Assembly: GCA_002254285.1 (NCBI GenBank)
Contig: NIUZ01000039.1
Coordinates: forward strand, 1 to 35,962
Source of the DNA: Bacteroidetes bacterium 4572_112
GTDB taxonomy: Bacteria > Bacteroidota > Bacteroidia > Bacteroidales > UBA1556
Direction: 5' to 3'
Length of the DNA stretch: 35,962 nucleotides
Below are positions 9,196 to 35,962 of this stretch, in pieces (position 1 is the first letter of the stretch; each line of letters begins with the position of its first letter). Below the pieces are notes generated by a model that had not been told where the DNA came from, did no database searches, and saw only the letters and a list, made by a program, of their open reading frames with translations. Both the position numbers and the translations under genes were made by a program.

Positions 9196-9509
9196 TTTTA
9201 AATTATATATATTTAATTTTATGTGTTTTATTTCCACGACAAATGTAAAAGAATTATCCTATACTTTACTAAGGATTTGATGCGTTTTTTTTGTGATTAA
9301 TGTTTGTATTAAAATATGGAATATGGCAGCTTTTGTAAATTCATGTAAAAAGCTTGATTTTGAACATGTTCAAGGGCGTTATAATAATAACATTTTTGTT
9401 AGTAATTAGTGTAATGCATTGAATGAAAGTATTGTAAGTGTTATGTGTAAAAAAAATAGTTTTAACTTATTGTTAAAATAAAAGTGTGCCAAAAAGTTAA
9501 AACAGCCTT

Positions 9510-22156: not shown

Positions 22157-22714
22157 TCATATATACTTAATCGTATCTAATTGACTATTCATATCTGTTT
22201 TACTTTGATCCACACCACCAATAATTGTACATATTTTTAGTTTCATTCCACAGAATTCAATAATTTGTTTATTAAACATATTTTTAAGCCTTCTGTTTGC
22301 ACCAGTAATCTTATAGTAGAATGATGGAGCACCTGTGGAGGTGAAAATGCTAACTTTTTTGTTAGTAAGAAGACCTTTTGGACGAGAATTGACATAGGTA
22401 AAGGCGAAACCTTTTGATAAGTTCCAATCAATAAAATTCTTTAGTATAGCTGGCATACTTCCCCACCAATATGGAAATACAAAAACAATTTCGTCAGCAT
22501 TGCTAATCTTTGTTTGAAAGAACTCCATGGACTTAGTTGTAACTAAATCGTTTGCTCTTTCATAGGTGAAAAATGGCTGCTGATGTTCGCAGTTATACAA
22601 ATCTAGCACCTCAACTTTATGATTTTTAGATTCAGCCGATTCTTTATACTTATTTGTCATAGCAAAAGAGAAACTCTCCTTTATGGGATTTGCTACTATT
22701 ATTAATATATTCAT
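22157..22714 (-). CDS. Flavodoxin-fold NAD(P)H-dependent (quinone) oxidoreductase
   Basis: ILII.ANP..ESFS, FPYWWGSMPAILKNFID, GFAF and TSTGAP motifs. Confidence 0.9.
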   Translation of the reverse strand: MNILIIVANPIKESFSFAMTNKYKESAESKNHKVEVLDLYNCEHQQPFFTYERANDLVTTKSMEFFQTKISNADEIVFVFPYWWGSMPAILKNFIDWNLSKGFAFTYVNSRPKGLLTNKKVSIFTSTGAPSFYYKITGANRRLKNMFNKQIIEFCGMKLKICTIIGGVDQSKTDMNSQLDTIKYI

Positions 22715-22881: not shown

Positions 22882-24141
22882 TTATCCTCCGAAATCATCA
22901 AAGGCAATCATCTCATCTGGTACACCAAGGTCTTCCAACATTTTAAGAACGGCATCGTTCATCATTGGAGGTCCACAAAGGTAATACTCAATTTCTTCTG
23001 GCTCTTCCATTTTCGATAGGTAGTTGTCGAGGATTATCTGATGGATAAATCCTACATAACCTTCCCAATTATCTTCTGGAGCAGGCTCCGAAAGTCCAAT
23101 ATGGAATTTGAATTGTGGGTTATCTTTTTCAATAGCCCTAAACTCATCCACATAGAATAGTTCTCTTAACGAGCGACCACCATACCAGAAAGTAGCTTTA
23201 CGATCTGTTTTCTGAGTTAAGTATTGATCGAATATATGCGAGCGCATAGGAGCCATTCCGGCACCACCACCAATAAACATCATCTCGCGCTTGGTATCCT
23301 TAATAAAGAACTCACCATAAGGTCCCGAAACCATAACTTTATCACCTGGCTTAAGGTTAAATATGTATGAAGAGCAAATTCCTGGGTTTACCTTAGCAAA
23401 ACCTTTATTCTTAGCATCCCACGGTGGAGTTGCAACACGAATATTAAGTTTCACAATATCACCTTCAGCAGGGTGGTTAGCCATAGAATATGCACGGTAT
23501 ATTGGCTCTGGATTTTTCATCACCAAATCCCACATATTAAAGTTGTCCCAATCGGCTTTATAGTCGTCACCAATAACCATATCTTTATAATTAACAGTGA
23601 TTTTAGGAACATCAATCTGAATATATCCACCTGAGCGGAAATCCATATGCTCGCCTTCAGGAAGACGTACCGTAAATTCCTTAATAAATGTAGCAACAGA
23701 TTCGTTAGAAACCACTTCGCATTCCCATTTCTTAATTCCGAATATCTCAGCTGGTACGCCAATACTCATATCGTTACGAACCTTCACCTGGCAACCAAGT
23801 CGCCAATGATCAGAAGCCTCTTTACGAGTAAAAAATCCTTTTTCAGTAGGAAGAATATCTCCACCACCATCAAGCACCTGTACTTTACACATTCCGCAAG
23901 TACCACCACCACCACAAGCCGATGGAAGGAAGATTTTCTCTTCGGTCATCTTGGCCAATAGTGTACCATCAGGATCAGTTTCTATTTCTTTTTCGCCATT
24001 AATAGTAAGCTTTACCTTTCCTTGAGGAGTAAGCTTTTTCTTTGCATATAGCAATATGCTCACCAATAGAAGCATTACGCCCAAAAAGGCTACAACGCTT
24101 ATTATAATTATGGTAGAGGTTGAAATTTCTGCTAATATCAT
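22882..24141 (-). CDS. nqrF: Na+-translocating NADH:quinone reductase subunit F
   Basis: CGGGGTCGMC 2Fe-2S motif, RAYSMAN, GGGAGMAPMRSH, YLCGPP and FDDFGG. Confidence 0.98.
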   Translation of the reverse strand: MILAEISTSTIIIISVVAFLGVMLLLVSILLYAKKKLTPQGKVKLTINGEKEIETDPDGTLLAKMTEEKIFLPSACGGGGTCGMCKVQVLDGGGDILPTEKGFFTRKEASDHWRLGCQVKVRNDMSIGVPAEIFGIKKWECEVVSNESVATFIKEFTVRLPEGEHMDFRSGGYIQIDVPKITVNYKDMVIGDDYKADWDNFNMWDLVMKNPEPIYRAYSMANHPAEGDIVKLNIRVATPPWDAKNKGFAKVNPGICSSYIFNLKPGDKVMVSGPYGEFFIKDTKREMMFIGGGAGMAPMRSHIFDQYLTQKTDRKATFWYGGRSLRELFYVDEFRAIEKDNPQFKFHIGLSEPAPEDNWEGYVGFIHQIILDNYLSKMEEPEEIEYYLCGPPMMNDAVLKMLEDLGVPDEMIAFDDFGG

Positions 24142-24151
24142 ATCTTTAAAA

Positions 24152-24769
24152 TTATAATTTTATACCCATAAATGTCATGAAAGCAATACCCATAATACCT
24201 GTAATTACGAAAGTAATTCCTAGGCCACGTAGTGGAGCAGGTACGTTTGAATACTGAATCTTCTCGCGAATAGCAGCAATCGCTACAATAGCCATAAACC
24301 AACCTACACCCGAACCAAGTCCGAATACTGTTGCCTCGGCAATGTTTTGATATTCTCGCTGTTGCATAAATAATGATCCACCAAGTATTGCACAATTTAC
24401 TGCAATAAGAGGAAGGAAAATTCCTAGTGATGCATATAATGAAGGAGAGAATTTCTCAACAATCATTTCCACAAGCTGTACCATTGATGCTATAATGGCA
24501 ATAAACATGATAAAGCTAAGGAAGCTAAGGTCTATAGTAGCATACTCTTCGCCCATCCACTGCAATGCGCCAGGCTTAAGAAGGTATTCGTTCATAAGGT
24601 AGTCAACAGGTACTGTAATTATCAAAACGAAAATTACTGCTGCACCAAGTCCTACCGATGTTTTTACTGTTTTCGATACTGCCAAATAGGAACACATTCC
24701 AAGGAAGTACGCAAACACCATATTGTCTACAAATATGGATTTTACAAATATATTTACTAAATCTTGCAT
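24152..24769 (-). CDS. nqrE: Na+-NQR subunit E
   Basis: FLGMCSYLAVSK, LGIFLPLIAVNCAI and GLGITF motifs. Confidence 0.97.
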   Translation of the reverse strand: MQDLVNIFVKSIFVDNMVFAYFLGMCSYLAVSKTVKTSVGLGAAVIFVLIITVPVDYLMNEYLLKPGALQWMGEEYATIDLSFLSFIMFIAIIASMVQLVEMIVEKFSPSLYASLGIFLPLIAVNCAILGGSLFMQQREYQNIAEATVFGLGSGVGWFMAIVAIAAIREKIQYSNVPAPLRGLGITFVITGIMGIAFMTFMGIKL

Positions 24770-24795
24770 ATTAATTTCTTTAAAATATTATCAAA

Positions 24796-25251
24796 TTAAT
24801 CTTCAACTAGGTCAGTATTGCGCGAGCGCTGAATCCAAATAATAGTTGCAACAGCAAATAGAGCCATTGGTGGTAATAATACCAAACCATTATTTACATA
24901 TCCTAAATCATAAAATGAGTCAGGGATAATTTTCATTCCCATAAGTGATCCTGTTCCGAATAACTCACGGAAAAAAGCCACTGCAACAAGTATCCATGCA
25001 TATCCTGCACCGTTTCCTAGTCCATCGAGGAAAGCAGGCCAAGGTTTGTTTGACATAGCAAATGCCTCAAAACGTCCCATGATAATACAGTTGGTAATAA
25101 TAAGTCCAACAAATACCGATAGCTGCTTGCTTACATCATAAGCGAAGGCTTTAAGTACTTGGTCAACAAGGATTACCAGTGCCGCAATTACTACTAATTG
25201 AACAATGATACGAATACGAGAAGGAATTCCGTTTCGCATGAATGAGATCAC
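24796..25251 (-). pseudogene. nqrD: Na+-NQR subunit D, N-terminally truncated
   Basis: [36 protein letters not shown] is present; the N-terminal NNPI..LG.CSALAVT region is absent. Confidence 0.9.
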
Positions 25252-25927
25252 CATTACATGTAAGTGTACTTCCTGATATAGCATCAATACCATTTATGGC
25301 ATCAATATCCGATTGGTTTGCAACGCCACCTTTTATCACAGATACCGATACAAATTTATCATCTTTAAAAATCTGTTTTCCAATAAATCTGTTAGTAAAG
25401 TCAGGTAGAATAATCTCTGCTCCAAGTCCAGGAGTTTCGCTATCGTGTCCAAAATTTACTGCTGCCACAGTGTTTTTGTCAGAATCTAATGAGATGTTTC
25501 CATAAATAGGACCCCAAAGTCCTTTTCCAAATAGTGGAATTATATAGAAAGTTTCTCCATTATTATTCATAACAAACAATGGCATTGCTGTAATGTTTTT
25601 AGAATTAGCATTATATAATGCTGTTTTTAGATTTACGTCAAAAGCACGAGTAGTACCTGTAAGTTCGCCATTGGCAAAGGTGCTAATCTCTTCTCCTTTT
25701 TCGTTTATTATCACCTCTTTAACAAGGTGCTTTTTGTATAAGTCAGCTGCTGTAGTTGCATCAGCTGCCACACCTATTGATCCCAATAGGTTGATCATTT
25801 TTTCGTTTTGCTTATTTTTATCCTGCAAAGGTTTTAGCGCAAGATTGGCTGAGGTAAGAATTACCGCTACCAATACCACCATAACCGAAGCATAAATAAA
25901 AATGTATGAATTACTATTCTTGTTCAT
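25250..25927 (-). pseudogene. nqrC: Na+-NQR subunit C, C-terminally truncated; ORF runs out of frame over nqrD to 25163
   Basis: GKGLWGPIYG, ETPGLGAEI and [12 protein letters not shown] are present, then an abrupt switch to nqrD sequence. Confidence 0.9.
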
Positions 25928-25947
25928 ATCGTTAAATTATTTAATGG

Positions 25948-27099
25948 TTAAGCGCTAAGTTTAGCACGTTTAAGTCTTTTCTTTATGTTTGAATCCACCA
26001 CGTAGAAGTCAATTGTTGGAGCAAATACGTTCATAAATAGTATTGCCAACATTACACCTTCTGGATAAGCAGGATTTAGCACCCTTACAAGTATAGCAAT
26101 GAATCCGGCCAAGAAGCCATAAATCCATTTTCCTGTTTCGGTTTGTGCTGCTGTTACTGGATCGGTAATCATAAATACACCACCAAAGGCAAATCCACCA
26201 ATTAGGATATGCTCCCAAGGACATAATTGTAAGTATGTATTGTCAGGGAATGATCCTGATAATAAGTGAAGAATTCCTCCCATTGCGATACCTCCCACGA
26301 AGAACGATAACATCAATTTCCAATTTCCTACTCCTGTTACCAATAGTATAAAGGCGCCTATTGCCAAAGCAATAATTGAAGTCTCACCAATGGATCCTGC
26401 GTAGTTTCCTACTATCATTTCCATATGGCTAATTCCGGCACCATGTCCTGCTGTAAGCTCTGCTAGTGGAGTTGCTCCTGAGAAAGCATCAGCTTTTTCG
26501 GCAATCCATACTTTGTCACCACTCATTGCTGAAGGGTAAGCGAAGAATAATACTGCTCTTGTTAATAGGGCAGGGTTTACAATGTTCATCCCTGTACCTC
26601 CGAAAACTTCTTTTCCGAAAATAACAGCAAAAGCTACTGCCACAGCAACCATCCATAATGGAGTAGATACTGGTACAATTAGCGGAATAAGCATTCCCGA
26701 TACAAAGAAACCTTCGTTTACTTCGTGACCTCTGCCTTGGGCAAACATTATCTCAATTCCCAATCCTACTACATAAGTAACAATGATGATTGGTAGCACT
26801 TGCCATAATCCATAAACAAAGGCATCCATTATAGATGCTGTTTCGCCAATGGAAGTAAAATGCATATTTCCAGCATTCCACATTCCGAAGAATAAAGCTG
26901 GCATCATGGCTATTACAACCATAAACATTGAGCGCTTCATATCCACACCGTCTCTGATGTGACTTCCCGATGTTGTAACTACGTCGGGAGTATAAAATAA
27001 AGTATCAGCGGCGTCATACATAGAGTGAAAAGCCTGAAACTTTTCTCCCTTTTGCACGTGAGGCTTTATATTGTCTAATATATTTCTTATAAATTTCAT
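25948..27099 (-). CDS. nqrB: Na+-NQR subunit B
   Basis: HIRDGVDMKR, EGFFVSG, KEVFGGTG.N..NPAL, SGATPL FMN site and AYPEGVMLAIL. Confidence 0.97.
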   Translation of the reverse strand: MKFIRNILDNIKPHVQKGEKFQAFHSMYDAADTLFYTPDVVTTSGSHIRDGVDMKRSMFMVVIAMMPALFFGMWNAGNMHFTSIGETASIMDAFVYGLWQVLPIIIVTYVVGLGIEIMFAQGRGHEVNEGFFVSGMLIPLIVPVSTPLWMVAVAVAFAVIFGKEVFGGTGMNIVNPALLTRAVLFFAYPSAMSGDKVWIAEKADAFSGATPLAELTAGHGAGISHMEMIVGNYAGSIGETSIIALAIGAFILLVTGVGNWKLMLSFFVGGIAMGGILHLLSGSFPDNTYLQLCPWEHILIGGFAFGGVFMITDPVTAAQTETGKWIYGFLAGFIAILVRVLNPAYPEGVMLAILFMNVFAPTIDFYVVDSNIKKRLKRAKLSA

Positions 27100-27119
27100 T
27101 ATCGATAAATTATCATTAA

Positions 27120-28466
27120 TTAACTCATTTCCTTACGTAATTCATCAAGACCCTCGCGGAGTACTTTCTGAATGTCAATTTTAGAAGTACTGATGTATTC
27201 GCATAATGCTATATCCTCTTCATCAACTTCGTAAATTCCCAAATTCTCCATCATATCTATATCATTAATCATAATCGATTTGATAAGTTGAATAGGGTAT
27301 ATGTCCATAGGGAAAACCTTCTCCATCTGTCCTGTAAAAACAAAAGCACGCTCACCACCGTTCATATTAGTGTTTAGAGTGTACTCTTTGTTTGGACTTA
27401 ACCACGAGAAAGCTGTTCTGTAAAAACTATGCTTTTTAGGACTTGGAATTAACCAACCGAAAAACTCAAATATATTTCCTTCAGGAATTACTGTTAATGA
27501 GTTATGGTAGTAAGAAAGTGAGCCCTTAGGTCCAATATTGCTACCAGTAAGTACATTACCACTAATGATTCTAACAGGGTTCTCAGTTTTAAGTTTTCCT
27601 TCAATAATTTCAGCAATACAAGCACCACGGTTCACCTTATAGTATTGAGGCTCTTTAACCTCAGAACCTGTCAATGCAATTGTAATTTCAGGTTTGTACT
27701 CGCCAGTTAGGAATAAATTACCAATGGTGGCAACATCCTGAGCTTGTACTACCCATACAATCTCACCTTTATTAATTGGTGATACATGATGAATCTGAAT
27801 CCCTACATTTCCTGCTGGGTGAGGCCCAGAGAAAGTGTTGATTTCTACATTCTTAATATCTTTAAGGAAAGAACTAGTTTTGGAACTAATTCCTAAGTTT
27901 ACTTTTCCTTCAGTAAGTTTTGCCAGAGCATCAACTCCTGCTTGAAAGGCCTCTTCTAAGCCCGCAAGGCTGAAATCCAAATCAGCCGCTAGTGGAGCGC
28001 TATCAAAACCAGATATAAATACTGATTTTGGCTTATCCTCAGGATTTGCTACAACAGTATACGGACGTTGGCGGACCAAAGACCAAAGGCCACTTTCTAA
28101 AAGTTGCTCTTTGATTGCTTTTGCATCCAGAGTTGAAGGTTGAGCTTTGCCGAAAGAAACAAAATCGTTGCTGCCATCGGCCTCAATCTTTATCTCAAGC
28201 ATTTTACGCTTTGCACCTCTAACTATTTCAGTAATTGTACCACTAACTGGGGATGGGATTTTTACGTACTCCCTTTTTTTATCAAAGAAGACAGGAGCGC
28301 CTCTTTTTACTTTGTCTCCCACTCTTGCTGACAGTTTTGGCAGCATCCCGTGAAAGTCGGTAGGTTTTAATGCATAATGACTTGTATTTATTTCTTGCAC
28401 TTCTTTTTGCGCAGTTCCTACAAGTTTTATGTCATAACCTTTCTTTATCTTAATATTCATTGACAT
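27120..28466 (-). CDS. nqrA: Na+-NQR subunit A
   Basis: IKIKKG.D, GPHPAGNVG, ISGNVLTG, GGERA and EED.ALCEY..SK motifs. Confidence 0.97.
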   Translation of the reverse strand: MSMNIKIKKGYDIKLVGTAQKEVQEINTSHYALKPTDFHGMLPKLSARVGDKVKRGAPVFFDKKREYVKIPSPVSGTITEIVRGAKRKMLEIKIEADGSNDFVSFGKAQPSTLDAKAIKEQLLESGLWSLVRQRPYTVVANPEDKPKSVFISGFDSAPLAADLDFSLAGLEEAFQAGVDALAKLTEGKVNLGISSKTSSFLKDIKNVEINTFSGPHPAGNVGIQIHHVSPINKGEIVWVVQAQDVATIGNLFLTGEYKPEITIALTGSEVKEPQYYKVNRGACIAEIIEGKLKTENPVRIISGNVLTGSNIGPKGSLSYYHNSLTVIPEGNIFEFFGWLIPSPKKHSFYRTAFSWLSPNKEYTLNTNMNGGERAFVFTGQMEKVFPMDIYPIQLIKSIMINDIDMMENLGIYEVDEEDIALCEYISTSKIDIQKVLREGLDELRKEMS

Positions 28467-29254
28467 AAGAAAACTATGATTGTTAACACTTTAACACCTT
28501 TGTTAAACCTAACAAAAGTGAATTATATAATACTACAAATATGGTAAAAAAAATTAAGTCATCACTACTTAATAGTTAAATAAAAACGGTTAAAAAACTA
28601 ACATTTCTCATAAAATAACATAAAGTATCAGAAAATGAAGATATTATAATCAAATAGTTATAAGAATAACAGCTAAGTTTATTTAATAACAACGCCTTAT
28701 TTAGAATAGTAAACTTCTTTGAAAATTAAAGTGTTTTTGTTTTTTTTATTTGGCTATTATAAATAGTGTTTTTACAAGAGCCAAGTTTAATTTGTGATTA
28801 TTTGCGCGGACTAATTGTAATTATTGGGATAAATTTTCCACTTATGTAATACTAAATATTTATAAATGGTATATACACTAAGTATTATAAAATACAGTAT
28901 ATCAAATATATAAAGGATTATATTGCTTGCCTATGATTTTGTATATGGTTAATTATTTGTAATGAAATATTTTGCAGATTGACTAAAATCAATTACTTTT
29001 AGAAATATTTTGGTAGGTAAATTGTTCTCTGAATTTATGCTAATTTATAATATGAGATAAGTTACTTTCTTAGGTGTTTTGTCTTTGTGTTCAAATATAT
29101 CTAACATCATTATAAATAATACTGATAAATGAGAGTAGTTTATTACTTTTGTGAGCACAAATAGAAAAAGTCTGTGTTGAATTTTGTTGTTACAAAAATA
29201 GCAAGACATTTATTTGGTTTGAATATTAATAGGTTTAATTATAATAATAGTTTT

Positions 29255-29749
29255 ATGAAATTCAAGAACATTTTTGTTGCTTTTCTTGTGATATTGTTGG
29301 GGTGGATGCTTCTGACGTGGTCATTGGAACTGCAGAGTATATTGCTCGGTGTTGGAATTTCGGCAGTATTGTCGTTATTGCTCTGCGGTAGTTGTACTCT
29401 TTTTAATGAGATTAACCTTACACCTAAGGCTTTTGCTTATTCTTTTTGGTACTTAATTGTATTTCTAATAGAGTTGGTTAAAGCTAATATTGATGTAACG
29501 CGAAGAGTGCTTTCGCCTTCAATGCCTATAAATCCAGGTATTGTGAAAGTAGAGACTACTCTAAAATCTAAAATGGCTCGTTTGATTCTTGCTAACTCTA
29601 TCACATTAACGCCAGGTACATTTACCATTGAGATAAATGACGACGCGCTTTATGTGCACTGGATTGATGTTGAGAGTGATGATGTAGAAGGCGCAACGAA
29701 AGCGATAGTAAGTAAATTTGAAAAGTTATTGGAGGTAATGTATGGATAA
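29255..29749 (+). CDS. mnhE: MnhE/MrpE (MbxA-like) antiporter subunit
   Basis: INPGIV, LANSITLTPGT and LYVHWID motifs; ATG at 29255 preferred. Confidence 0.93.
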   Translation: MKFKNIFVAFLVILLGWMLLTWSLELQSILLGVGISAVLSLLLCGSCTLFNEINLTPKAFAYSFWYLIVFLIELVKANIDVTRRVLSPSMPINPGIVKVETTLKSKMARLILANSITLTPGTFTIEINDDALYVHWIDVESDDVEGATKAIVSKFEKLLEVMYG

Positions 29750-30002
29750 TATAGTTATTTATATTGCTTTAGTAATGTTGATGGTAACATTATTAGCAGG
29801 GCTGATAAGGTTTGTAAAAGGACCTTCGGTAGTAGATAAAGTTGTGGGCTTTGATTCCATGACAATCACCTCTTTGGTGATGATTGGTGTTATAGCTTAT
29901 TTGTCGAATCGTGCTATTTATTTAGACGTAGCAGTGGTATATGGCTTCCTTAGTTTCTTAGGAGTTATTATTGTTGCTAAATATATACAAGGAGGACTAT
30001 AA
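29742..30002 (+). CDS. mnhF: MnhF/MrpF (MbxB-like) subunit
   Basis: RFVKGPS..D.VV..D and YLDVA motifs; 3 TM. Confidence 0.92.
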   Translation: MDNIVIYIALVMLMVTLLAGLIRFVKGPSVVDKVVGFDSMTITSLVMIGVIAYLSNRAIYLDVAVVYGFLSFLGVIIVAKYIQGGL

Positions 30003-30003
30003 T

Positions 30004-30381
30004 ATGGGCGAGACAATAAAATTAATCGGTGAAATATTTCTGTTAATAGGTTCATTTAGCCTTATGACAGCAGCTGTAGGTTTACTACGTATGCCAGATG
30101 TATATAATAGAGTGCAAACAGGTACTAAAGCTTCTACTTTGGGAGCATTAATGTCGTTTGTAGGCTTAGCAATGATGAGTTTTGATCATTGGCAAGAAAC
30201 AAACTGGGTAGGTAGATTCTTGGTTTTAGTGATTTTCATTCTTCTTACAAATCCAGTTTCGTCACATGTGTTGATGCGTGCTGCTTATGCTATGAAAATA
30301 CCTTTATCAAAGCTTACTTCAGTAGATAAACTAAAGGAAGATATTAATAATAAAGTTTTGGAGGAACCTAAAGATGAATAG
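30004..30381 (+). CDS. mnhG: MnhG/MrpG (MbxC-like) subunit
   Basis: GLLRMPDVYNR....TKASTLG and LTNPVSSH motifs. Confidence 0.93.
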   Translation: MGETIKLIGEIFLLIGSFSLMTAAVGLLRMPDVYNRVQTGTKASTLGALMSFVGLAMMSFDHWQETNWVGRFLVLVIFILLTNPVSSHVLMRAAYAMKIPLSKLTSVDKLKEDINNKVLEEPKDE

Positions 30382-30631
30382 TGAAATGATATATAGCTTA
30401 ATAGCTATCGGAATAGGTATTCTTATGTTAATAATGGCAGTAATTGCTATTCTTAATGATAAGTTATCTGTAGCAGTTATAGCTGCTGGTGTTGTTAGTT
30501 TATTTGCCTCAGTACTGTTTTTATTAATGGCGGCTCCCGATGTTGCAATGACAGAAGCTGCTATTGGTAGTGGACTTTCAACTTTAATTTTCTTTTATGT
30601 ATTAAATAAAATCAAAAGACAAAATGCTTAG
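30374..30631 (+). CDS. DUF4040 / MbhD-MbxD-like subunit
   Basis: APDVAMTEAAIGSG motif; 3 TM. Confidence 0.9.
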   Translation: MNSEMIYSLIAIGIGILMLIMAVIAILNDKLSVAVIAAGVVSLFASVLFLLMAAPDVAMTEAAIGSGLSTLIFFYVLNKIKRQNA

Positions 30632-31331
30632 AAATTTTTTAATAGCATTAGTTTTGGCTAGCTTTGGATTCATATTTCTGAATCTATATAATAGCTATGA
30701 GCCAAAAACTGAGCTTACAGGTATTGCAGCCCATTATGCAGAAAATGGTGCTAGTGAAGTTGGTGCAGCCAACCTTGTTACTGCTGTGGTGGTTTCTTAT
30801 CGTTCTTTTGATACTTTAGGAGAAATTACCATACTATTCCTTACCGCTGCTATCATCTCTTTCTTCTTGAAATTGAGCAACGAGGACGAAAATAAAGTTA
30901 TTATCCACAAAGGAACTTCAGAAATTCTTAAAACAGCTTCTCAACTCCTTATACCCCTCATATTCTTATTTGGAGTGTATGTGTTCATCAACGGACACCT
31001 TACTCCCGGTGGAGGTTTTCAGGGAGGTGCGATTATAGCATCAGGAGTAGTATTAGCTATTATGGCTAATCCTAATATGACCATCAACCATACTGTAATA
31101 GTGTGGGTAGAAAGTCTGTCGGGTGTTACAGTGGTAATAATTGGTGTACTAGGAATTATCCTTGGTGGTGGTTTCCTTGATAGTACGCTAGATGGATATG
31201 GCCTTGGTGAATTTGGAACTGTTTTTAGCGCAGGTACTATCCCTGTTATCTATAGCCTTGTAGGCTTAAAGGTAGGAGCAGAGATTTCAAATATCTTGAA
31301 TAAATATCAAAAATCACAAAAAGAATCATAG
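30624..31331 (+). CDS. mnhB: MnhB-family subunit (MbhE+MbhF-type fusion)
   Basis: NLVTAVVVSYRSFDTLGE followed by GHLTPGGGFQGG and GLKVG. Confidence 0.92.
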   Translation: MLRNFLIALVLASFGFIFLNLYNSYEPKTELTGIAAHYAENGASEVGAANLVTAVVVSYRSFDTLGEITILFLTAAIISFFLKLSNEDENKVIIHKGTSEILKTASQLLIPLIFLFGVYVFINGHLTPGGGFQGGAIIASGVVLAIMANPNMTINHTVIVWVESLSGVTVVIIGVLGIILGGGFLDSTLDGYGLGEFGTVFSAGTIPVIYSLVGLKVGAEISNILNKYQKSQKES

Positions 31332-31333
31332 AT

Positions 31334-31714
31334 ATGGAAACTTTGGAATTAGGAAAAATAGGATTACTTATCGGTTTCTTGCTAGTGATAGTTGGTTTCT
31401 GGGGTATCCTTCAACAGAAAAACATTATTAAGATTATTGTGAGCTTCACAATTCTTAATACAGGTATAAACTTAGTAATGGTTGCTTTGGGCTATATTAA
31501 AGGTCGCACAGCTCCTATTATTGATGACTCAGTGGAGCAATTAGCTAATCACAATGTGATAAATGCTATTGTCGATCCTGTGCCACAAGCTCTTGTACTT
31601 ACGGCTATTGTTATTGGTTTTGGTGTTACATCATTACTATTAGCATACGCAATGAAGCTTTTTAGAGCTAAGAAAACATTAGAAATTAATCAGTTTAACG
31701 ATTTGAAATGGTAG
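31334..31714 (+). CDS. mnhC: MnhC/MrpC (MbxG-like) subunit
   Basis: KNIIKII, APII and DPVPQALVLTAIVIG motifs. Confidence 0.93.
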   Translation: METLELGKIGLLIGFLLVIVGFWGILQQKNIIKIIVSFTILNTGINLVMVALGYIKGRTAPIIDDSVEQLANHNVINAIVDPVPQALVLTAIVIGFGVTSLLLAYAMKLFRAKKTLEINQFNDLKW

Positions 31715-34700
31715 ATCCAATTTTTATAGTAGTTGCTGCTCTAGGAGTAGGCTTCTTAATCGGTATCTTAGGGAAATTGGGAAAAACTTTTACCGGTTTG
31801 TTATCCCTTCTTACAATTGCTTTTATGACTTACGTTTCCGCAGGTTGGCTTTTAGCCTTCTATTCAGGAAGCCAAGTGGCAGAAGTAATCACCACCGCAG
31901 GTTTTCAAGCACCATTCTCCATTAGTTTACTAATGGGATATAATGAGGCTTTCCTTACAACAATAGTCAATTTTATGGGCTTACTTGGTGGAATTTATTT
32001 ATTCTTCAACTTTGGTCGTAAAGGTCGAAACGCTTACGTTGTTTATATCGTTTTCCTTATGGGATTAAACGTTGTGATAATGAGTCGTGACCTTTTTAAC
32101 CTTTTTGTATTCCTCGAAATTACTTCGATTGCTACAGCAGGACTTATCCTTATTGAGGATGGTAACCGTACCGTAGGTGCTGGTTTTAAATATATGCTAG
32201 CTACTTCGGTAATATCAAGTATTTTCCTTTTGGGAATTATATTTATATACTTCTTTACAGGCACTCTTAGTCTTGAGGATTTATATAATAATGCAAACCT
32301 TCAGAATGCGGGTGGCGCAATAGCAATTTTCCTTGTGATGGTTGCTGCCATACTAGAAATGAAACCTTTTCCTGCCAATGGTTGGGGACTGGATGTTTAT
32401 GAAGGCTCGCATCAAGGTTTCTCAGCGTTAATTTCTACTGCTACAGCTACAGCATCTTTTTATATGCTATATAAGATATTGCTTATTGCAGGTGCTGCTT
32501 GGAATTACCCTATCGCACTTATCGGTGCATTCACCTTTATCGGTGCCAACCTTTTTGCAGTAAAACAAAAGTATGCTCGTCGTATGTTATCTTATTCTTC
32601 AATTGGTCAGCTAGGTCTTTTGATGATGATAATGGGACTTAGAGAGTATTTAGGCGATAACCTTAACTTTATTGTTGTTACAGTTCTTCTTACCAATGTT
32701 CTTGCTAAATCAGGTTTCTTCTGGTTAATTGGAATGGTAAAAGCTCTTAAACTTAAAGAATGGGCAATTATTCGTCGCAAGCCGTTTATGCTTTTCCTAA
32801 TGGGAGTATTTATTTTTGCTCTTATCGGATTTCCTCCATTCCCTTCTTTCTTTGGAAAATGGGAGTTTATCATGAGCCTAGCTAAAGTTGGTGGTTTCAG
32901 CTGGATTGCTGTTATCCTTATAGGTTCATTCTTTGAGGCAATATATTTATTCCGCTGGTACGGGATGGCTGTTAAAGGTGAAGATATTTATGATAACCTA
33001 GAATTTAAAACTAAGTTAAATAAACTTATTCCAGTTGGAATAGTAACTGCACTATTATTTATTATCGGATATTTTTCAGCACAATATACAGAAGCTGGAG
33101 CAATGATTAACTTCATTCCTTTCATATTTGTATTGGTATTATTTGCTGTTGACAAACTTCCTTTAATGGTTAAAAACATAGCTTCAATAGCTGCTTTGGC
33201 TCTTCATTTTTATATGATTTATCCAAACTTAGCTGGCGACAATCTTCGCTTGATATTTGAAGTAATATTTATGGTTGGTGGTATTCTTACCCTAATCGCA
33301 GGTTTCTCTTATAAAGGTGTTCGTCGTGGTTTTTATCCAGTAGCAATTCTTATGTATGCTGGTTTAACTGCTATTATCGAAGCTCATACAACTCTAGGGT
33401 TCTTCTACGGTTGGGAGTTAATGACTGCAGGTTCTTACTTCCTTATTATAAGAGGTAAAAAATCTATGCCACATGCTCTTAGTTATATGTTATTTAGTAT
33501 TGCTGGTGCTTATGCTATCCTTGCAGGATTTAGTATTGCAGGTATTGGATATACTGATTTCAATTTAGATATTCTTAATAATATTCAATATTTCCCAAAT
33601 TGGGCTTATGGTTTATTGCTGGTTGGTTTCTTAACCAAAACAGCTTCTATCGGTCTTCATATTTGGTTACCTGGTGCTCACGGTGAAGCCGAGAGTGATG
33701 TATCGCCAATGGTATCAGCTATATTACTTAAAGCTGGTGTATTTGGAGTAGTACTTACTCTTATCGGAATGACTAAGTCAGATTTTGATCTGAGCACTCT
33801 AGCATATATACTTGGTTGGATTGGTGCTCTTACTGCTTTGGTTGGAAATATCGGAGCTGTATTCCAAGAAGATGCTAAGCGTTTGCTAGCTTATTCTTCA
33901 ATTGGTCAGCTAGGTTATATCATTTTTGCTTTCGCAATTATGACTCACTTGGGTTGGTTAACAGGTTTTACTTATACAATCAATCACTTTATGTATAAAG
34001 CAGTACTCTTCCTTACAATAGGAGCAGTGGTATTGCGTACAGGTACTCATAATATGTACGAAATGGGTGGTTTGATTAAGAAAATGCCTTTCGCTTTTGT
34101 AGCTGTATTAATTGGAATTATCGCTCTATCGGGTGTGCCGCCTTTGTCAGGTTTCACAGGTAAATGGTTATTCTATAATGCTGTAATCGAAAAAGGTTGG
34201 TACTTCCAAGGAACAATAGTTTTCTTCTCTGGTGGATTGGCTTTCTTATATCTTTTCCGCTTGATTCATACTATATTCTTGGGTCAGTTGAAAGATAATC
34301 ACCGCGAGTTGAAAGAGATTTCTATTTGGTTCTTAATACCAATATATACTCTTATTGCAGGTTTGATGGTGTTTTCTGCCAAGCCACAATGGGTATTACA
34401 ACCTCTAGGCGAAATTATTGCCAACTACTTCCCTAATGGAGGTTTACGTTGGGACGGTGCTTTTGCATACACTCAGCTAGGACATTGGACTGGTACAGGA
34501 GTTATGATCACAATTGCAACAGTATTTGTAAGTATTCTTATTATACTTAAAATGCTTACTCGCAAAGCACACAAACTTGAACAATTTGATGTGGTATTCT
34601 CAGGCGAGCGTCCTGAAAGACCAGAAACTACACATATAGCATACAATATGTACGCAGGATTCTATAAAGCTGTTTGGCCATTAACTCTTCCTTATTTCGA

Positions 34701-34848
34701 GAAATTTTGGGAGTGGGCAACAAATATAGTTCATGAGACTGCAGGATTCGGACGTCGTGTTTATAGCGGTAACGGACAAGCTTATATGTTACATATTGTT
34801 CTATTTATTATTGTTTTATTCTTTATAACAATTGGAGGAAGTTTATAA
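31708..34848 (+). CDS. Fused double MrpD/NuoM-N-like antiporter subunit (MbxH+H'-like), 1046 aa
   Basis: Two complete proton-antiporter modules: DLFNLFVFLE/YSSIGQLG/GFPPF..FFGKW and FFYGWE/HIWLPGAH/YSSIGQLG/GVPPLSGFTGKW. Confidence 0.9.
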   Translation: MVDPIFIVVAALGVGFLIGILGKLGKTFTGLLSLLTIAFMTYVSAGWLLAFYSGSQVAEVITTAGFQAPFSISLLMGYNEAFLTTIVNFMGLLGGIYLFFNFGRKGRNAYVVYIVFLMGLNVVIMSRDLFNLFVFLEITSIATAGLILIEDGNRTVGAGFKYMLATSVISSIFLLGIIFIYFFTGTLSLEDLYNNANLQNAGGAIAIFLVMVAAILEMKPFPANGWGLDVYEGSHQGFSALISTATATASFYMLYKILLIAGAAWNYPIALIGAFTFIGANLFAVKQKYARRMLSYSSIGQLGLLMMIMGLREYLGDNLNFIVVTVLLTNVLAKSGFFWLIGMVKALKLKEWAIIRRKPFMLFLMGVFIFALIGFPPFPSFFGKWEFIMSLAKVGGFSWIAVILIGSFFEAIYLFRWYGMAVKGEDIYDNLEFKTKLNKLIPVGIVTALLFIIGYFSAQYTEAGAMINFIPFIFVLVLFAVDKLPLMVKNIASIAALALHFYMIYPNLAGDNLRLIFEVIFMVGGILTLIAGFSYKGVRRGFYPVAILMYAGLTAIIEAHTTLGFFYGWELMTAGSYFLIIRGKKSMPHALSYMLFSIAGAYAILAGFSIAGIGYTDFNLDILNNIQYFPNWAYGLLLVGFLTKTASIGLHIWLPGAHGEAESDVSPMVSAILLKAGVFGVVLTLIGMTKSDFDLSTLAYILGWIGALTALVGNIGAVFQEDAKRLLAYSSIGQLGYIIFAFAIMTHLGWLTGFTYTINHFMYKAVLFLTIGAVVLRTGTHNMYEMGGLIKKMPFAFVAVLIGIIALSGVPPLSGFTGKWLFYNAVIEKGWYFQGTIVFFSGGLAFLYLFRLIHTIFLGQLKDNHRELKEISIWFLIPIYTLIAGLMVFSAKPQWVLQPLGEIIANYFPNGGLRWDGAFAYTQLGHWTGTGVMITIATVFVSILIILKMLTRKAHKLEQFDVVFSGERPERPETTHIAYNMYAGFYKAVWPLTLPYFEKFWEWATNIVHETAGFGRRVYSGNGQAYMLHIVLFIIVLFFITIGGSL

Positions 34849-34850
34849 TT

Positions 34851-35765
34851 ATGACAAATTTTTCAAATATTGGATATACATTACTTGGTTTATTTTTAGT
34901 ACTAAACTGGGGAATGTTGATGAGCGCAACTTTTAGAAAGATTGTTGCTCGCGTGGCTGGACGTCACGGAATACCAATTTATCAACCATGGATTGATCTT
35001 GTAAAGAATGCTGGTACTCGTACCACTCTTTCGCATGGTGTAATGTTCTACTTAGGGCCTGTTTTTCGCCTTACTGGAGCTGTTGGTATGTTTTTATTTA
35101 TGCCTGCTCTTGTAGGAGTTGGTAATGATCATTGGTTAAACTTTTCATTCCAAGGCGATATAGTTCTTGTTCTTTACTTCCAACTGTTTGGAATGTTGGG
35201 AATGGCTCTTGGTGCTGGTGAAGGTGGACAACCTCACTCTGCTATCGGTATTGGTCGTGGTTTGGCGCAACATGCTGCTATTGAGCTTCCTTTAACTTTA
35301 GGAATACTCTCTTTGGCTATTCAATATCAAACTCTATCATTGGTTGATATTGCAAATGCTCAACAAGGTGGATTTTTGAATTGGTCGTTATTTACTAACC
35401 CAATAGCTTCAGCAGCAATATTACTTGCAGCTCTTGGTGCTATGGGTCACTCACCATTTAACTTGGTGAAAGCTCCTAACGAAATTCCTATTGGCCCTCC
35501 AACAGAATATCATGGTAGTTACCTAGGTATACTAATGTCTAGTGGTGCTATTATCCACGTTATGGAAGCAGCATTATTTATGAACCTTGTGTTCGGTGGT
35601 GCTACTAACTGGATTGAGTTTATTATAAAAACATTCCTAATTTATTTCTACTCTGTATTTGTGGGCGTTGTATTCCCCCGTTTCAGAATAGAGCAGTCAG
35701 TGGTTTGGTTCTTCAAACTGCCACTAGTTTTAGGAATAATCGCTATTTTAATCTATAGTTTTTAA
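34851..35765 (+). CDS. NuoH/MbxM-family (complex I subunit 1) membrane anchor
   Basis: RKIVAR...R.G.P..QPW.D..K, PF......E...G..TEY.G and PRFRIEQ motifs. Confidence 0.88.
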   Translation: MTNFSNIGYTLLGLFLVLNWGMLMSATFRKIVARVAGRHGIPIYQPWIDLVKNAGTRTTLSHGVMFYLGPVFRLTGAVGMFLFMPALVGVGNDHWLNFSFQGDIVLVLYFQLFGMLGMALGAGEGGQPHSAIGIGRGLAQHAAIELPLTLGILSLAIQYQTLSLVDIANAQQGGFLNWSLFTNPIASAAILLAALGAMGHSPFNLVKAPNEIPIGPPTEYHGSYLGILMSSGAIIHVMEAALFMNLVFGGATNWIEFIIKTFLIYFYSVFVGVVFPRFRIEQSVVWFFKLPLVLGIIAILIYSF

Positions 35766-35776
35766 TTTAGAGTATT

Positions 35777-35962
35777 ATGTCAGAAATAGATATGAATGAT
35801 AAGATGAACGAATTGCTTAAAAAGGCAGAGGTTAATTCTTCTACCAAAGAGGCAAAATCATTTGTTCGTCCTGAAGATGAAGAGAGAGAAGTAATTGCTC
35901 CCGATGGATCTATAATTAAAGTAAATCCTATTTACGATTACTTTAGTGGAGAAAAGCCAACT
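35777..35962 (+). CDS. Partial ORF running off the window; by gene order possibly the NuoB/MbxJ-like subunit
   Basis: Open frame MSEIDMNDKMNELLKKAEVNSS...PIYDYFSGEKPT, 11 nt after the previous stop; hydrophilic; no diagnostic motif visible yet. Confidence 0.55.
   Translation, partial: MSEIDMNDKMNELLKKAEVNSSTKEAKSFVRPEDEEREVIAPDGSIIKVNPIYDYFSGEKPT

What the first reader, a model, noticed from the sequence alone, without database searches (positions are those of the whole stretch)
29255..35962. Mbx/MBS-like Mrp-coupled membrane oxidoreductase operon in a Bacteroidota genome
Seen: tightly coupled genes for MrpE, F, G, DUF4040, MnhB, MrpC, a double MrpD, a NuoH-like subunit and a further soluble ORF. 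Known: a plain Mrp antiporter has no NuoH homolog. The Thermococcales mbx (MBS, sulfane-sulfur reductase) operon has this order, with two antiporter genes followed directly by subunit M, whereas MBH has one antiporter gene and M late in the operon. Inference: this is a ferredoxin-fed, ion-pumping complex-I ancestor-type enzyme with unknown electron acceptor. I know of no functional characterisation in this phylum.
Basis: partly seen in the sequence, partly recalled or inferred. Interest (0 to 1): 0.8.

Follow-up and report, generated by a model that had tools for sequence, protein, structure and literature searches.

The report
Bacterial MBX respiratory operon, cut short
The window ends inside a 13-gene operon for a bacterial relative of the archaeal sulfur-reducing ion pump MBS whose input subunit is fused to an NAD(P)H flavoprotein, a widespread kind already noted in Thermotoga genomes but never tested biochemically.

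Summary
They are MrpE/F/G, MbhD, a fused MbhE-MnhB, NuoK/MrpC, one 1046-aa fused double antiporter subunit and a NuoH-like anchor. The last 62 codons begin a NuoB-like gene and are cut off by the contig end.

All four window proteins tested match chains of Pyrococcus MBS (6U8Y) best.

Collinear orthologues (82-83% DNA identity) continue with:
- a NuoB with only three cysteines;
- NuoC;
- an MbsL-like NuoD without [NiFe] motifs;
- a NuoI domain fused to an NfnB/GltD-type flavoprotein;
- a DHOD-like FMN protein.

So "Mbx/MBS-like" holds. "Ferredoxin-fed" is unproven, because NAD(P)(H) is built in as a substrate.

This is the bacterial "MBX" noted for Thermotoga and Mesotoga. At least 580 stretches in the species-genome collection encode the fusion. 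This scan has reported the kind before on other DNA.

New here:
- The genome holds two diverged MBX operons.
- The window's type carries an acidic, NADH-like motif. The other keeps the NADPH-type YRR.
- A Na+-NQR operon lies divergently upstream.

Verdict: new member of a known, uncharacterised kind.

The parts
29255..29749 (+). MrpE-like first gene of the operon (MbsA position). The ORF is open from GTG 29174. ATG 29255 gives 164 aa, the length of the G008 orthologue.
   Evidence: Pfam MNHE E 4.4e-39. ORFs, sequence. Not compared with PDB chains.
29742..30002 (+). MrpF-like (MbsB position), 86 aa.
   Evidence: Pfam MrpF_PhaF E 6.8e-14.
29971..30381 (+). MrpG-like (MbsC position), 136 aa.
   Evidence: Pfam PhaG_MnhG_YufB E 9.4e-25.
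30374..30631 (+). MbhD/MbsD-like (former DUF4040), 85 aa.
   Evidence: Pfam MbhD E 4.6e-19.
30624..31331 (+). MbsE-like, 235 aa. MbhE and MnhB domains lie in one protein, as in MBS. In MBH they are two chains, E and F.
   Evidence: Pfam MbhE + MnhB. Best PDB hit is 6u8y_E (235 aa), 148.6 bits over residues 33-231 of both. 6cfw_F scores 51 and 6cfw_E 36.
31334..31714 (+). MbsG-like (NuoK/MrpC), 126 aa.
   Evidence: Pfam Oxidored_q2 E 2.2e-23. Best PDB hit is 6u8y_G at 83.6 bits; 6cfw_G scores 55.3.
31708..34848 (+). Fused MbsH-MbsH' double antiporter-like subunit, 1046 aa.
   Evidence: Two Proton_antipo_M stretches in Pfam. The C-terminal half (508-1038) matches 6u8y_X (MbsH', 618 aa) best, at 189 bits. 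NCBIfam: N-half NuoN-like, C-half PRK08668. A frame of about 1045 aa occurs in 50 of the 62 related loci that hold a hit.
34851..35765 (+). MbsM-like (NuoH-like) membrane anchor of the peripheral arm, 304 aa.
   Evidence: Pfam NADHdh E 2.9e-43. Best PDB hit is 6u8y_M at 123 bits; next are NdhA at 65 and MbhM at 49.
35777..35962 (+). First 62 codons of the MbsJ/NuoB-like subunit. This is its lineage-specific N-terminal extension, cut by the contig end.
   Evidence: Translation. 92% identical to residues 1-62 of the 241-aa NuoB-like protein of G012. The extension motif R.V..PDG..I.V.P..DYF recurs across most of the 64 related loci printed.

Best explanation
**What it is (confidence about 0.9).** The window holds the membrane arm and the first 62 codons of the peripheral arm of a 13-gene bacterial MBX operon. 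[quoted passage not shown]

**Gene content.**
- In the window: MrpE/F/G, MbhD, MbsE and MbsG (the Na+/H+ module), one fused MbsH-MbsH' (two pump units), MbsM, and the start of NuoB/MbsJ.
- Seen only in orthologues: the rest of NuoB/MbsJ, NuoC/MbsK, NuoD/MbsL, NuoI/MbsN fused to an NfnB/GltD-type FAD-NAD(P)H flavoprotein, and a DHOD-like FMN protein.

**Proposed mechanism (inferred, about 0.4).**
1. NADH reduces the FAD. This 'A-type' carries an acidic NADH-like motif.
2. Electrons pass through the four [4Fe-4S] clusters of the fusion protein to the proximal cluster of NuoB.
3. As in MBS, that cluster has only three cysteine ligands and so an open iron. There a sulfane-sulfur compound (polysulfide or similar) is reduced at the NuoB/NuoD/NuoH chamber.
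4. That chemistry drives the two antiporter-like pumps and the Mrp module to export H+/Na+.

**Shown:** gene content, homology, the cysteine pattern and the cofactor motifs.
**Inferred:** the donor, the acceptor, the direction of flow and the ion.
For: **Subunit by subunit, the best solved match is MBS (6U8Y).**
- Window proteins: MbsM 123 bits (next best 65); MbsH' 189; MbsE 148.6; MbsG 83.6.
- Orthologue proteins: MbsL 278 bits (Nqo4 181, MbhL 125); MbsJ 216 (NdhK 143, MbhJ 107); MbsN 77 for the N-terminal domain of the fusion.

**Orthology.**
- G008 and G012 are 82-83% identical in DNA and collinear up to the window's last bases.
- The same 13 genes occur in G004, G006, G008 and G039.
- G012's contig starts inside the fused H-H' gene and holds NuoH through the DHOD-like gene.

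**MBS hallmarks (defined from passages of PMC7684303 and PMC8165549).**
- The NuoB-like protein has exactly three Cys (92, 157, 187).
- It aligns without gaps to the MbsJ motif. Gly stands at the non-ligand C25 and Cys at C28.
- A single-Cys G[FYW]G[TS]GCG motif occurs in 63 of 66 related loci; the other 3 gave no regex match.
- The NuoD-like protein keeps only the two vestigial Cys that align with MbsL's RICV and NCPP motifs, which I equate with the paper's C85 and C385.

**Flavoprotein.** Two CxxCxxCxxxC motifs (NuoI-like), Fer4_20 and Pyr_redox_2. The best solved relatives are NfnB-type chains at 232-251 bits.

**Nucleotide preference.** NfnB-type chains have YRR where the A-type has T[SAC]LE.E, in 42 of 46 aligned A-type rows (4 gave no regex match).

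**Physiological context.**
- PFOR and other 2-oxoacid:ferredoxin oxidoreductases in 5 of 5 genomes.
- [FeFe]-hydrogenase in 4 of 5 and RnfC in 4 of 5.
- No NuoA in 0 of 5, three of which are at least 97% complete.

**Literature.** T. maritima mbxA rose 4.4-fold after S0 addition (PMC9431562, passages read).
Against: - **The window lacks the peripheral arm.** Every statement on NuoB/C/D, the fusion and the DHOD-like protein rests on orthologues. The exceptions are the 62-aa start of NuoB and a 90-codon 3' end of a DHOD-like gene at the end of contig C84.
- **No activity has been measured** for any bacterial MBX.
- **The driving force is small.** By recalled standard potentials, NAD(P)H to polysulfide yields only about 10 kJ/mol per electron pair. 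That is little for a complex with two pump units.
- **The literature is split.** It offers ferredoxin:NAD(P)+ oxidoreductase as the alternative function (PMC4758237 and 10.1101/322537, passages read).
- **Coupling residues are only partly kept.** In the pairwise alignment, two of the five MbsM charged-axis residues named in PMC7684303 (E203, E211) align with Glu. E193, D196 and E104 align with Ser, Asn and Leu. This is my residue count on a pairwise alignment only.
- **The fusion protein misses its family cut-off.** It scores 877 bits against NF010590, below the curated 946.
- **NADH preference is a motif rule**, recalled rather than measured.
- **The DHOD-like protein is not shown to be a subunit.** The complex prediction gave only weak support: score 0.38, best of 3 controls 0.00.
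Confidence: 0.5

Rival explanations
1. Ion-translocating ferredoxin:NAD(P)+ oxidoreductase, the same job as Rnf. Reduced ferredoxin donates to the NuoI-like clusters, and electrons leave through the Fer4_20 clusters and FAD to NAD(P)+. The membrane arm pumps Na+/H+.
For: - This is the function given to Mbx-like operons with the GltD-type subunit in PMC4758237 and to Mesotoga Mbx in 10.1101/322537 (passages read).
- The flavoprotein is closest to NfnB, whose [4Fe-4S] clusters talk to ferredoxin.
- The organisms make reduced ferredoxin: PFOR in 5 of 5 genomes.
- By recalled potentials, the driving force (about 30 kJ/mol) suits two pump units better than NAD(P)H to sulfur.
Against: - The electron path would bypass the proximal cluster and the NuoB/D/H chamber, the only known coupling site of this enzyme class. 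Even so, the three-Cys cluster motif is kept in 63 of 66 loci.
- RnfC is present in 4 of 5 genomes, including this one, so the role would be partly redundant.
- Two MBX paralogues with different nucleotide motifs are not explained by this alone, although NAD+ and NADP+ versions are conceivable.
Confidence: 0.3
2. A three-substrate, flavin-based bifurcating or confurcating enzyme. The NfnB-like FAD would split or merge electrons between NAD(P)H, a low-potential branch (clusters or ferredoxin) and a higher-potential acceptor. That acceptor would sit either at the proximal cluster or at the FMN of the DHOD-like protein.
For: - The closest solved relatives of the flavoprotein are the bifurcating NfnB-type subunits and NfnB-like domains of larger redox enzymes.
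- A DHOD-like FMN gene follows directly in 46 of 58 Bacteroidota-labelled loci.
- NuoI-like clusters, Fer4_20, FAD/NAD(P)H and a DHOD-like barrel together make up the domain set of dihydropyrimidine dehydrogenase (the DPD architecture is recalled).
- Complex prediction, DHOD-like protein against the fusion: weak support. Median score 0.38 (runs 0.32-0.51), best of 3 controls 0.00. The runs agree in at least 63% of contacts and the partner's pLDDT is at least 81. The mark was reached by 58 of 80 solved complexes and 2 of 110 mismatched pairs. At 0.60 or under it was reached by only 7 of those 80 and by both mismatches that passed.
Against: - No NfnA/PyrK-like partner gene is in the operon.
- The DHOD-like gene was absent from all 16 loci of other phyla with enough downstream DNA, so it is not core to the enzyme.
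- The weak pass may reflect likeness to solved DPD/PreTA structures rather than binding.
- In the alignment an Ile, not Cys or Ser, stands opposite the Cys of DHODA's NLSCPNV motif, which I recall as the catalytic Cys130. Its substrate is therefore unknown.
Confidence: 0.1
3. An alternative complex I: NAD(P)H:menaquinone oxidoreductase in which the flavoprotein replaces NuoEFG.
For: - A built-in NAD(P)H module joined to a NuoB/C/D/H/I core and antiporter-like pumps resembles complex I logic.
- No NuoA was found in 5 of 5 genomes searched.
- Nqr next door shows that a quinone pool is used.
Against: - NuoB has one Cys where complex I and NDH-1 have the tandem CC (PMC7684303 passages).
- The positions aligned with Nqo4 His38 and Tyr87 are Thr and Val. 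This is my count on the alignment, and the role of those residues is recalled.
- All subunits score far higher against MBS than against any complex I chain.
Confidence: 0.05
4. A group 4 membrane-bound [NiFe] hydrogenase (MBH/Ech type), or a plain Mrp antiporter.
For: Mrp-type genes and a NuoH-like gene occur in both kinds of cluster.
Against: - The orthologous large subunit has two Cys in all and no CxxC pair.
- Its PF00374 match is absent for the A-type and below cut-off for the B-type.
- MbhL ranks far below MbsL (125 against 278 bits).
- A plain Mrp has no NuoH/B/C/D genes.
Confidence: 0.02

Closest known systems
[quoted passage not shown]
   Same: - Same gene order.
- Same subunit set: A-E, G, H, H', M, J, K, L and the N domain.
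- Every tested subunit scores best against its MBS chain.
- Three-Cys proximal cluster motif of MbsJ.
- MbsL-type large subunit with two vestigial Cys and no [NiFe] ligands.

   Different: - H and H' are fused into one 1046-aa protein.
- NuoB carries a conserved extension of about 60-70 aa.
- MbsJ C25 is Gly.
- Subunit N is fused to an NfnB/GltD-type NAD(P)H flavoprotein.
- A DHOD-like gene is appended.
- Host is bacterial and, judging by its relatives, mesophilic.
- No biochemistry has been done.
[quoted passage not shown]
   Same: - 13-gene Mrp + NuoH/B/C/D design.
- Flavoprotein-bearing last subunit.
- Predicted Na+/H+ pumping.
- Never purified.
   Different: - No Thermotogae sequence was on hand, so closeness is not measured.
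- The fusion protein falls below the NF010590 cut-off (877 against 946 bits).
- The window's A-type has an acidic motif in place of YRR, the H-H' fusion, the NuoB extension and the DHOD-like gene.
- The paper describes rubrerythrin at the operon end, not a DHOD-like gene.
P. furiosus MBH (membrane-bound [NiFe] hydrogenase), PDB 6CFW
   Same: Mrp-derived membrane arm and a NuoH/B/C/D/I-type peripheral module.
   Different: - MBH has one antiporter-like subunit, separate E and F chains, subunit M late in the operon (order recalled), and four [NiFe] Cys.
- Its scores are two to three times lower than those of MBS.
NfnB / NfnI large subunit (4YLF_B, 5JCA_L); also GltD and dihydropyrimidine dehydrogenase
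   Same: Residues about 150-600 of the fusion align end to end with them: two [4Fe-4S] clusters, FAD and an NAD(P)H site.
   Different: - No NfnA partner.
- An added N-terminal NuoI/MbsN domain.
- The A-type replaces the YRR of the NADPH site with T[SA]LE.E. The B-type keeps YRRR.

Membership tests
MBS/Mbx-type complex (P. furiosus MBS, 6U8Y) | Complete Mrp-derived membrane arm with two antiporter-like units (H, H') followed directly by the NuoH-like anchor M | tested here: met
   Window ORF order, Pfam, and best PDB chains MbsE, MbsG, MbsH' and MbsM. H and H' are fused here.
MBS/Mbx-type complex (P. furiosus MBS, 6U8Y) | Large subunit without the four [NiFe] cysteines but with the two vestigial ones (MbsL C85, C385) | tested here: met
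   Tested on the G012 orthologue, not on the window. It has two Cys only (92, 390), aligned with MbsL's RICV and NCPP motifs, which I equate with C85 and C385. 278 bits against 6u8y_L, compared with 125 against 6cfw_L. Feature taken from PMC7684303 passages.
MBS/Mbx-type complex (P. furiosus MBS, 6U8Y) | Proximal [4Fe-4S] of subunit J held by three cysteines in a shortened motif | tested here: met
   The orthologue's NuoB has exactly three Cys. It aligns without gaps to the MbsJ motif, with Gly at C25 and Cys at C28. The single-Cys motif occurs in 63 of 66 related loci. Real cluster coordination cannot be tested here.
MBS/Mbx-type complex (P. furiosus MBS, 6U8Y) | Stand-alone two-cluster subunit N that takes electrons from ferredoxin | tested here: not met
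   The N-like domain (77 bits against 6u8y_N) is the N-terminus of a 600-615-aa NfnB/GltD-type flavoprotein.
MBS/Mbx-type complex (P. furiosus MBS, 6U8Y) | Ferredoxin-dependent polysulfide reduction coupled to ion translocation | not testable with these tools
   Needs enzyme assays.
Bacterial MBX (Thermotoga-type mbx-like operon) | Mbx-like operon whose NuoI-like subunit is a GltD-related flavoprotein | tested here: met
   Met in orthologues G004, G006, G008, G012 and G039 and in the paralogue on C173. Definition from PMC4758237 passages.
Bacterial MBX (Thermotoga-type mbx-like operon) | Fusion protein belongs to NCBIfam NF010590 (PRK13984) | tested here: not met
   877.2 bits over 3-608 of 611 positions, below the curated cut-off of 946. 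It is a near relative, not an equivalog.
Group 4 membrane-bound [NiFe] hydrogenase (MBH/Ech) | Two CxxC [NiFe] motifs in the large subunit | tested here: not met
   No CxxC pair in the A-type or B-type large subunit. No PF00374 hit for the A-type; the B-type scores 19.7 bits, below the cut-off of 25.8.
Complex I / NDH-1 (quinone reductase) | Tandem cysteines on NuoB, quinone-binding His/Tyr on NuoD, and NuoA/J subunits | tested here: not met
   Single Cys in the motif. Thr and Val stand at the positions aligned with Nqo4 H38 and Y87 (my count; the role of those residues is recalled). PF00507 (NuoA) was found in 0 of 5 genomes.
Plain Mrp Na+/H+ antiporter | Seven Mrp subunits only, with no NuoH/B/C/D partners | tested here: not met
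   A NuoH-like gene and the start of a NuoB-like gene follow in the same operon.

The most novel reading that the evidence does not exclude
The window's 'A-type' is not just another MBX. It is a distinct respiratory enzyme of the Bacteroidota/FCB group, marked by four features:
- an NADH-specific input flavoprotein (T[SA]LE.E in place of YRR);
- fused H-H' pumps;
- a conserved NuoB N-terminal extension;
- in Bacteroidota, an extra DHOD-like FMN subunit that gives the electron wire a second redox outlet.

On this reading it works beside an NADPH-type 'B' isoform in the same cell. The two together would link the NADH and NADPH pools to sulfane sulfur, or to another still unknown acceptor, with Na+ pumping.
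Probability: 0.3. Interest if true: 0.65.

Novelty: new member of a known kind. Interest (0 to 1): 0.35.

Why it matters
MBS-type complexes sit between Mrp antiporters, membrane hydrogenases and complex I in evolution. Only the archaeal enzyme has been purified. The bacterial flavoprotein-fused form turns out to be common in anaerobic Bacteroidales, Ignavibacteria/Chlorobiota, Spirochaetia, Cloacimonadota and Marinimicrobia, with at least 580 confirmed stretches in the species-genome collection. In the five genomes searched, this organism and four relatives, no NuoA (the marker used for a standard complex I) was found.

Knowing its reaction would change energy budgets drawn for many sediment and vent fermenters. 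The candidates are an NAD(P)H- or ferredoxin-driven sulfur reductase and a second Rnf-like ferredoxin:NAD(P)+ pump.

Cultured carriers exist (Prolixibacter, Draconibacterium), so the question can be tested. For this window the result is mostly a sound annotation. It adds the observation that two isoforms with different nucleotide motifs coexist.

Tried and rejected
The recalled consensus TTGTGAANNNNTTCACAA gave 3 hits, all with 3 mismatches, against 3.7 expected by chance. The one in the intergenic region (28480) is no better than chance.
- **Promoter scan of 28400-29400.** 8 sites found against 8.4 expected.
- **Alignment of the upstream regions of four genomes.** No conserved block.
- **Expression.** No RNA holder was listed for the stretch, so nothing can be said on expression.
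- **Laying contigs of four DNA runs.** This showed only that near-identical DNA exists elsewhere and runs on past the window's end. The run labels (marine sediment, hydrothermal vent) are labels and are not used as evidence of function.
- **Rest of the A-type operon in this MAG.** PF00346 and PF01058 hit only the paralogue on C173. tblastn found only the last 90 codons of a DHOD-like gene at the end of C84.
- **Labelled tree with MBH, MBS, Ehr and Nuo references.** Not built, because no labelled reference sequences were on hand. PDB score rankings were used instead.
- **Literature on Bacteroidota Mbx.** Searches returned nothing relevant. One search listed 25 of 216 papers, and none of the 25 holds 'Mbx'.
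- **Papers not seen.** Schut et al. 2013, cited by others for the Mbx function, is not in the library and is only recalled. The figures and supplements of PMC4758237, which may list the taxa with mbx-like operons, could not be seen.

Full report
**What is in the window.**
The window is a whole contig (G000:C115) of a MAG with 191 contigs and 71.5% completeness. From 29174/29255 to the last base there is one tight + strand gene row. Pfam names the genes as follows:

| Coordinates | Pfam family | E-value |
|---|---|---|
| 29174/29255-29749 | MNHE | 4e-39 |
| 29742-30002 | MrpF_PhaF | 7e-14 |
| 29971-30381 | PhaG_MnhG | 9e-25 |
| 30374-30631 | MbhD | 5e-19 |
| 30624-31331 | MbhE + MnhB in one 235-aa protein | 6e-8 and 2e-23 |
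| 31334-31714 | Oxidored_q2 | 2e-23 |
| 31708-34848 | Proton_antipo_M, twice in one 1046-aa ORF | 2e-84 |
| 34851-35765 | NADHdh (NuoH) | 3e-43 |

The remaining 62 codons (35777-35962) have no Pfam hit and run off the contig.

That matches the length of the orthologue in G008. The 'double MrpD' is one fused gene.

**What the cut-off part is.**
- The NuoH-like protein finds orthologues at E 1e-100 or better in 12 other genomes of the 41 searched.
- G008 and G012 are 82-83% identical in DNA to the window and collinear with it up to its last bases.
- In G012 the gene after NuoH is a 241-aa NuoB-like protein. Its first 62 residues are 92% identical to the window's fragment.
- After that come NuoC-like (186 aa), NuoD-like (396 aa), a 600-615-aa protein and a 323-aa protein.
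- G004, G006, G008 and G039 show the same row.
- In this MAG, PF00346 and PF01058 find only a paralogue on contig C173.
- The last 90 codons of a DHOD-like gene run off the end of contig C84. About 5.4 kb is therefore simply unassembled.
- A near-identical contig in another public run continues about 1 kb past the window's end.

**Which family.**
Each of the four window proteins I compared with the PDB scores best against the corresponding chain of P. furiosus MBS (6U8Y). So do the orthologues' peripheral subunits.

| Protein | Source | Best MBS chain, bits | Next best |
|---|---|---|---|
| NuoH-like | window | MbsM, 123 | NdhA 65, MbhM 49 |
| C-terminal half of the fused subunit | window | MbsH', 189 | |
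| MbhE-MnhB | window | MbsE, 148.6, same length | |
| NuoK-like | window | MbsG, 83.6 | MbhG 55 |
| NuoD-like | orthologue | MbsL, 278 | Nqo4 181, MbhL 125 |
| NuoB-like | orthologue | MbsJ, 216 | NdhK 143, MbhJ 107 |
| N-terminal domain of the fusion | orthologue | MbsN, 77 | |

The MBS papers (PMC7684303 and PMC8165549, passages read) define the enzyme by two features:
- a large subunit that keeps two of the four [NiFe] cysteines (C85, C385);
- a proximal cluster held by three cysteines of MbsJ (C28, C93, C123) in a shortened motif.

Both features are met. The orthologous NuoD-like protein has only two Cys, aligned with MbsL's RICV and NCPP motifs, which I equate with C85 and C385. The NuoB-like protein has exactly three Cys and aligns without gaps, with GFGTGCG opposite MbsJ AFCTGCG. 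The single-Cys motif is found in 63 of 66 related loci; the other 3 gave no regex match.

The positions aligned with the quinone ligands of Nqo4 (His38, Tyr87; their roles are recalled) are Thr and Val (my count). NuoB lacks the tandem Cys of complex I. A hydrogenase, complex I and a plain Mrp antiporter are thus excluded, as far as orthologues can speak for the missing DNA.

**Where it departs from MBS.**
- The subunit-N domain (two CxxCxxCxxxC motifs) is fused to Fer4_20 + Pyr_redox_2.
- NCBIfam places the whole protein next to NF010590/PRK13984: 877 bits, below the cut-off of 946, over nearly the full model.
- The closest solved relatives of the flavoprotein part are NfnB-type chains (232-251 bits), ahead of GltD and DPD.

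NAD(P)(H) is therefore a built-in substrate, and 'ferredoxin-fed' is an assumption.

This design is in print. [quoted passage not shown] PMC9431562 calls the T. maritima 13-subunit homologue MBX, reports mbxA up 4.4-fold after S0 addition and predicts a sulfur reductase. 10.1101/322537 treats Mesotoga Mbx as a Na+-exporting NADP:ferredoxin oxidoreductase. None of these measured the enzyme.

My searches found no paper on it in Bacteroidota. Searches returned nothing relevant. One search listed 25 of its 216 papers, and none of those 25 holds 'Mbx'. This scan has described the same kind on other genomes several times.

**Distribution.**
Of these, 580 were confirmed by tblastn, and the best 80 were kept.
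- 58 of the 80 carry Bacteroidota labels, including Prolixibacter denitrificans DSM 27267, P. bellariivorans ATCC BAA-1284 and Draconibacterium.
- 3 carry Chlorobiota labels.
- 19 carry other labels: Spirochaetia, Cloacimonadales, Neomarinimicrobiota, Aminicenantes, Delongbacteria, Deltaproteobacteria and unnamed.

Among the 62 loci with a hit to the fused subunit, 50 have a frame of 1043-1083 aa. The 12 shorter ones mostly start at a locus end.

The DHOD-like gene follows directly in:
- 46 of 58 Bacteroidota-labelled loci (10 lack it despite at least 1300 nt downstream; 2 are too short to tell);
- 1 of 3 Chlorobiota-labelled loci;
- 0 of 19 others (16 have enough downstream DNA; 3 are too short).

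It is NF005741, 'dihydroorotate dehydrogenase-like protein' (365 bits, cut-off 303). In the alignment an Ile stands opposite the Cys of DHODA's NLSCPNV motif, which I recall as the catalytic Cys130.

A complex prediction of this protein against the fusion gave weak support only:
- median score 0.38, best of 3 controls 0.00;
- at least 63% of contacts agree between runs, and the partner's pLDDT is at least 81;
- the mark was reached by 58 of 80 solved complexes and 2 of 110 mismatched pairs;
- at 0.60 or under it was reached by only 7 of those 80 and by both passing mismatches.

Solved DPD-type structures may explain the pass.

**Two isoforms in one genome.**
Contig C173 carries a second, complete operon: E, F, G, D, E', G', separate H (505 aa) and H' (618 aa), M, J (182 aa, no extension), K, L and a 595-aa fusion. 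The contig ends 116 nt after it.
- Its subunits are 25-60% identical to the window type.
- Its large subunit is closer to MbsL: 369 bits.
- By the NuoH query, 6 of the 41 genomes hold both types: G000, G001, G008, G012, G014 and G039.

At the NAD(P)H site, the NfnB-type PDB chains and the B-type have YRR(R); all 5 B-type loci do. The window's A-type has T[SAC]LE.E in 42 of 46 aligned rows. By the usual Rossmann-fold rule (recalled), this suggests NADH for the A-type and NADPH for the B-type.

The A-type NuoB also carries a conserved N-terminal extension, R.V..PDG..I.V.P..DYF, seen across most of the 64 loci printed. The window's last 62 codons are part of it.

**Context.**
- Divergently upstream, across a 788-nt AT-rich spacer, lies nqrABCDEF (28466 down to 22882). 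A 449-aa ORF of NqrA length sits in the same place in G008 and G039; it was not scanned.
- The five genomes searched have PFOR (5 of 5), [FeFe]-hydrogenase (4 of 5), RnfC (4 of 5) and no NuoA (0 of 5; three are at least 97% complete).

These are ferredoxin-producing fermenters with Na+-type membrane energetics. This last point is an inference.

**Mechanism and odds.**
I rate the identity as an MBS/MBX-type ion-pumping oxidoreductase at about 0.9.

For the reaction I favour, at about 0.4, NADH (for the A-type) feeding the cluster chain and sulfane-sulfur reduction at the open iron of the three-Cys proximal cluster, which drives H+/Na+ export. My reasons are that this cluster motif is so strictly kept and that the chamber is the only known coupling site of the enzyme class.

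Points against:
- the small driving force of NAD(P)H to polysulfide (recalled potentials);
- three of the five MbsM charged-axis residues are not acidic in a pairwise alignment;
- there are no data on any bacterial enzyme.

The rivals are ferredoxin:NAD(P)+ oxidoreductase (0.3), a bifurcating three-substrate enzyme that uses the NfnB-like FAD and perhaps the DHOD-like FMN (0.1), a quinone reductase (0.05), and a hydrogenase or plain Mrp antiporter (0.02).

**Verdict.**
The donor and the novelty were overstated. This is a new member of a known but uncharacterised kind. The coexisting A and B isoforms and the Bacteroidota-specific additions are the only points of fresh interest.

Noticed in passing
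window 22882-28466 (- strand): A complete Na+-NQR operon, nqrA-F, transcribed divergently from the MBX operon across a 788-nt AT-rich spacer. Pfam families: NQRA domains, NQR2_RnfD_RnfE, FMN_bind, two Rnf-Nqr proteins, and Fer2 + FAD/NAD-binding. A 449-aa ORF of NqrA length sits in the same place in G008 and G039; it was not scanned.
   Followed up: partly
G000:C173 = L007 7981-18990 (+): A second, paralogous MBX operon ('B-type') in the same genome. It has separate H and H', a NuoB without the extension, a large subunit closer to MbsL (369 bits) and a YRRR motif at the NAD(P)H site. In G039 the B-type operon has its own DHOD-like gene. In three same-genus genomes it does not.
   Followed up: partly
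G000:C84 12733-13002 (- strand, running off the contig end at 13007): The last 90 codons of a DHOD-like gene, 71% identical to residues 234-323 of the G012 protein. This is probably the far side of the assembly gap that cuts the window's operon.
   Followed up: partly
window 35777-35962 and loci L024-L103: A-type NuoB-like subunits carry an N-terminal extension of 48-88 residues before the cluster motif in 63 of 64 loci (one frame holds X). It has a conserved core R.V..PDG..I.V.P..DYF and is absent from MbsJ and from the B-type. Its function is unknown.
   Followed up: partly
window 7351-9237 (- strand): A 628-aa ORF with a POR_N domain (2-oxoacid:ferredoxin oxidoreductase type). This is a ferredoxin-reducing enzyme on the same contig.
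   Followed up: no
G000:C148 1203-4935: Further antiporter-like (MrpA/D or NuoL/M/N type) genes, 24-33% identical to the fused H-H' subunit, on a 5.7-kb contig. This may be a plain Mrp antiporter or another complex.
   Followed up: no
L023 8670-9026 (G039): An extra 118-aa ORF lies between the NuoD-like gene and the fusion gene in this more distant genome. It is not seen in the same-genus operons.
   Followed up: no
window 22157-22714 and 17785-19224 (- strand): A Flavodoxin_2/FMN_red protein (185 aa) lies just downstream of nqrF, and there is a 479-aa protein with a C-terminal thioredoxin/AhpC-TSA domain. These are redox genes near the two respiratory operons.
   Followed up: no
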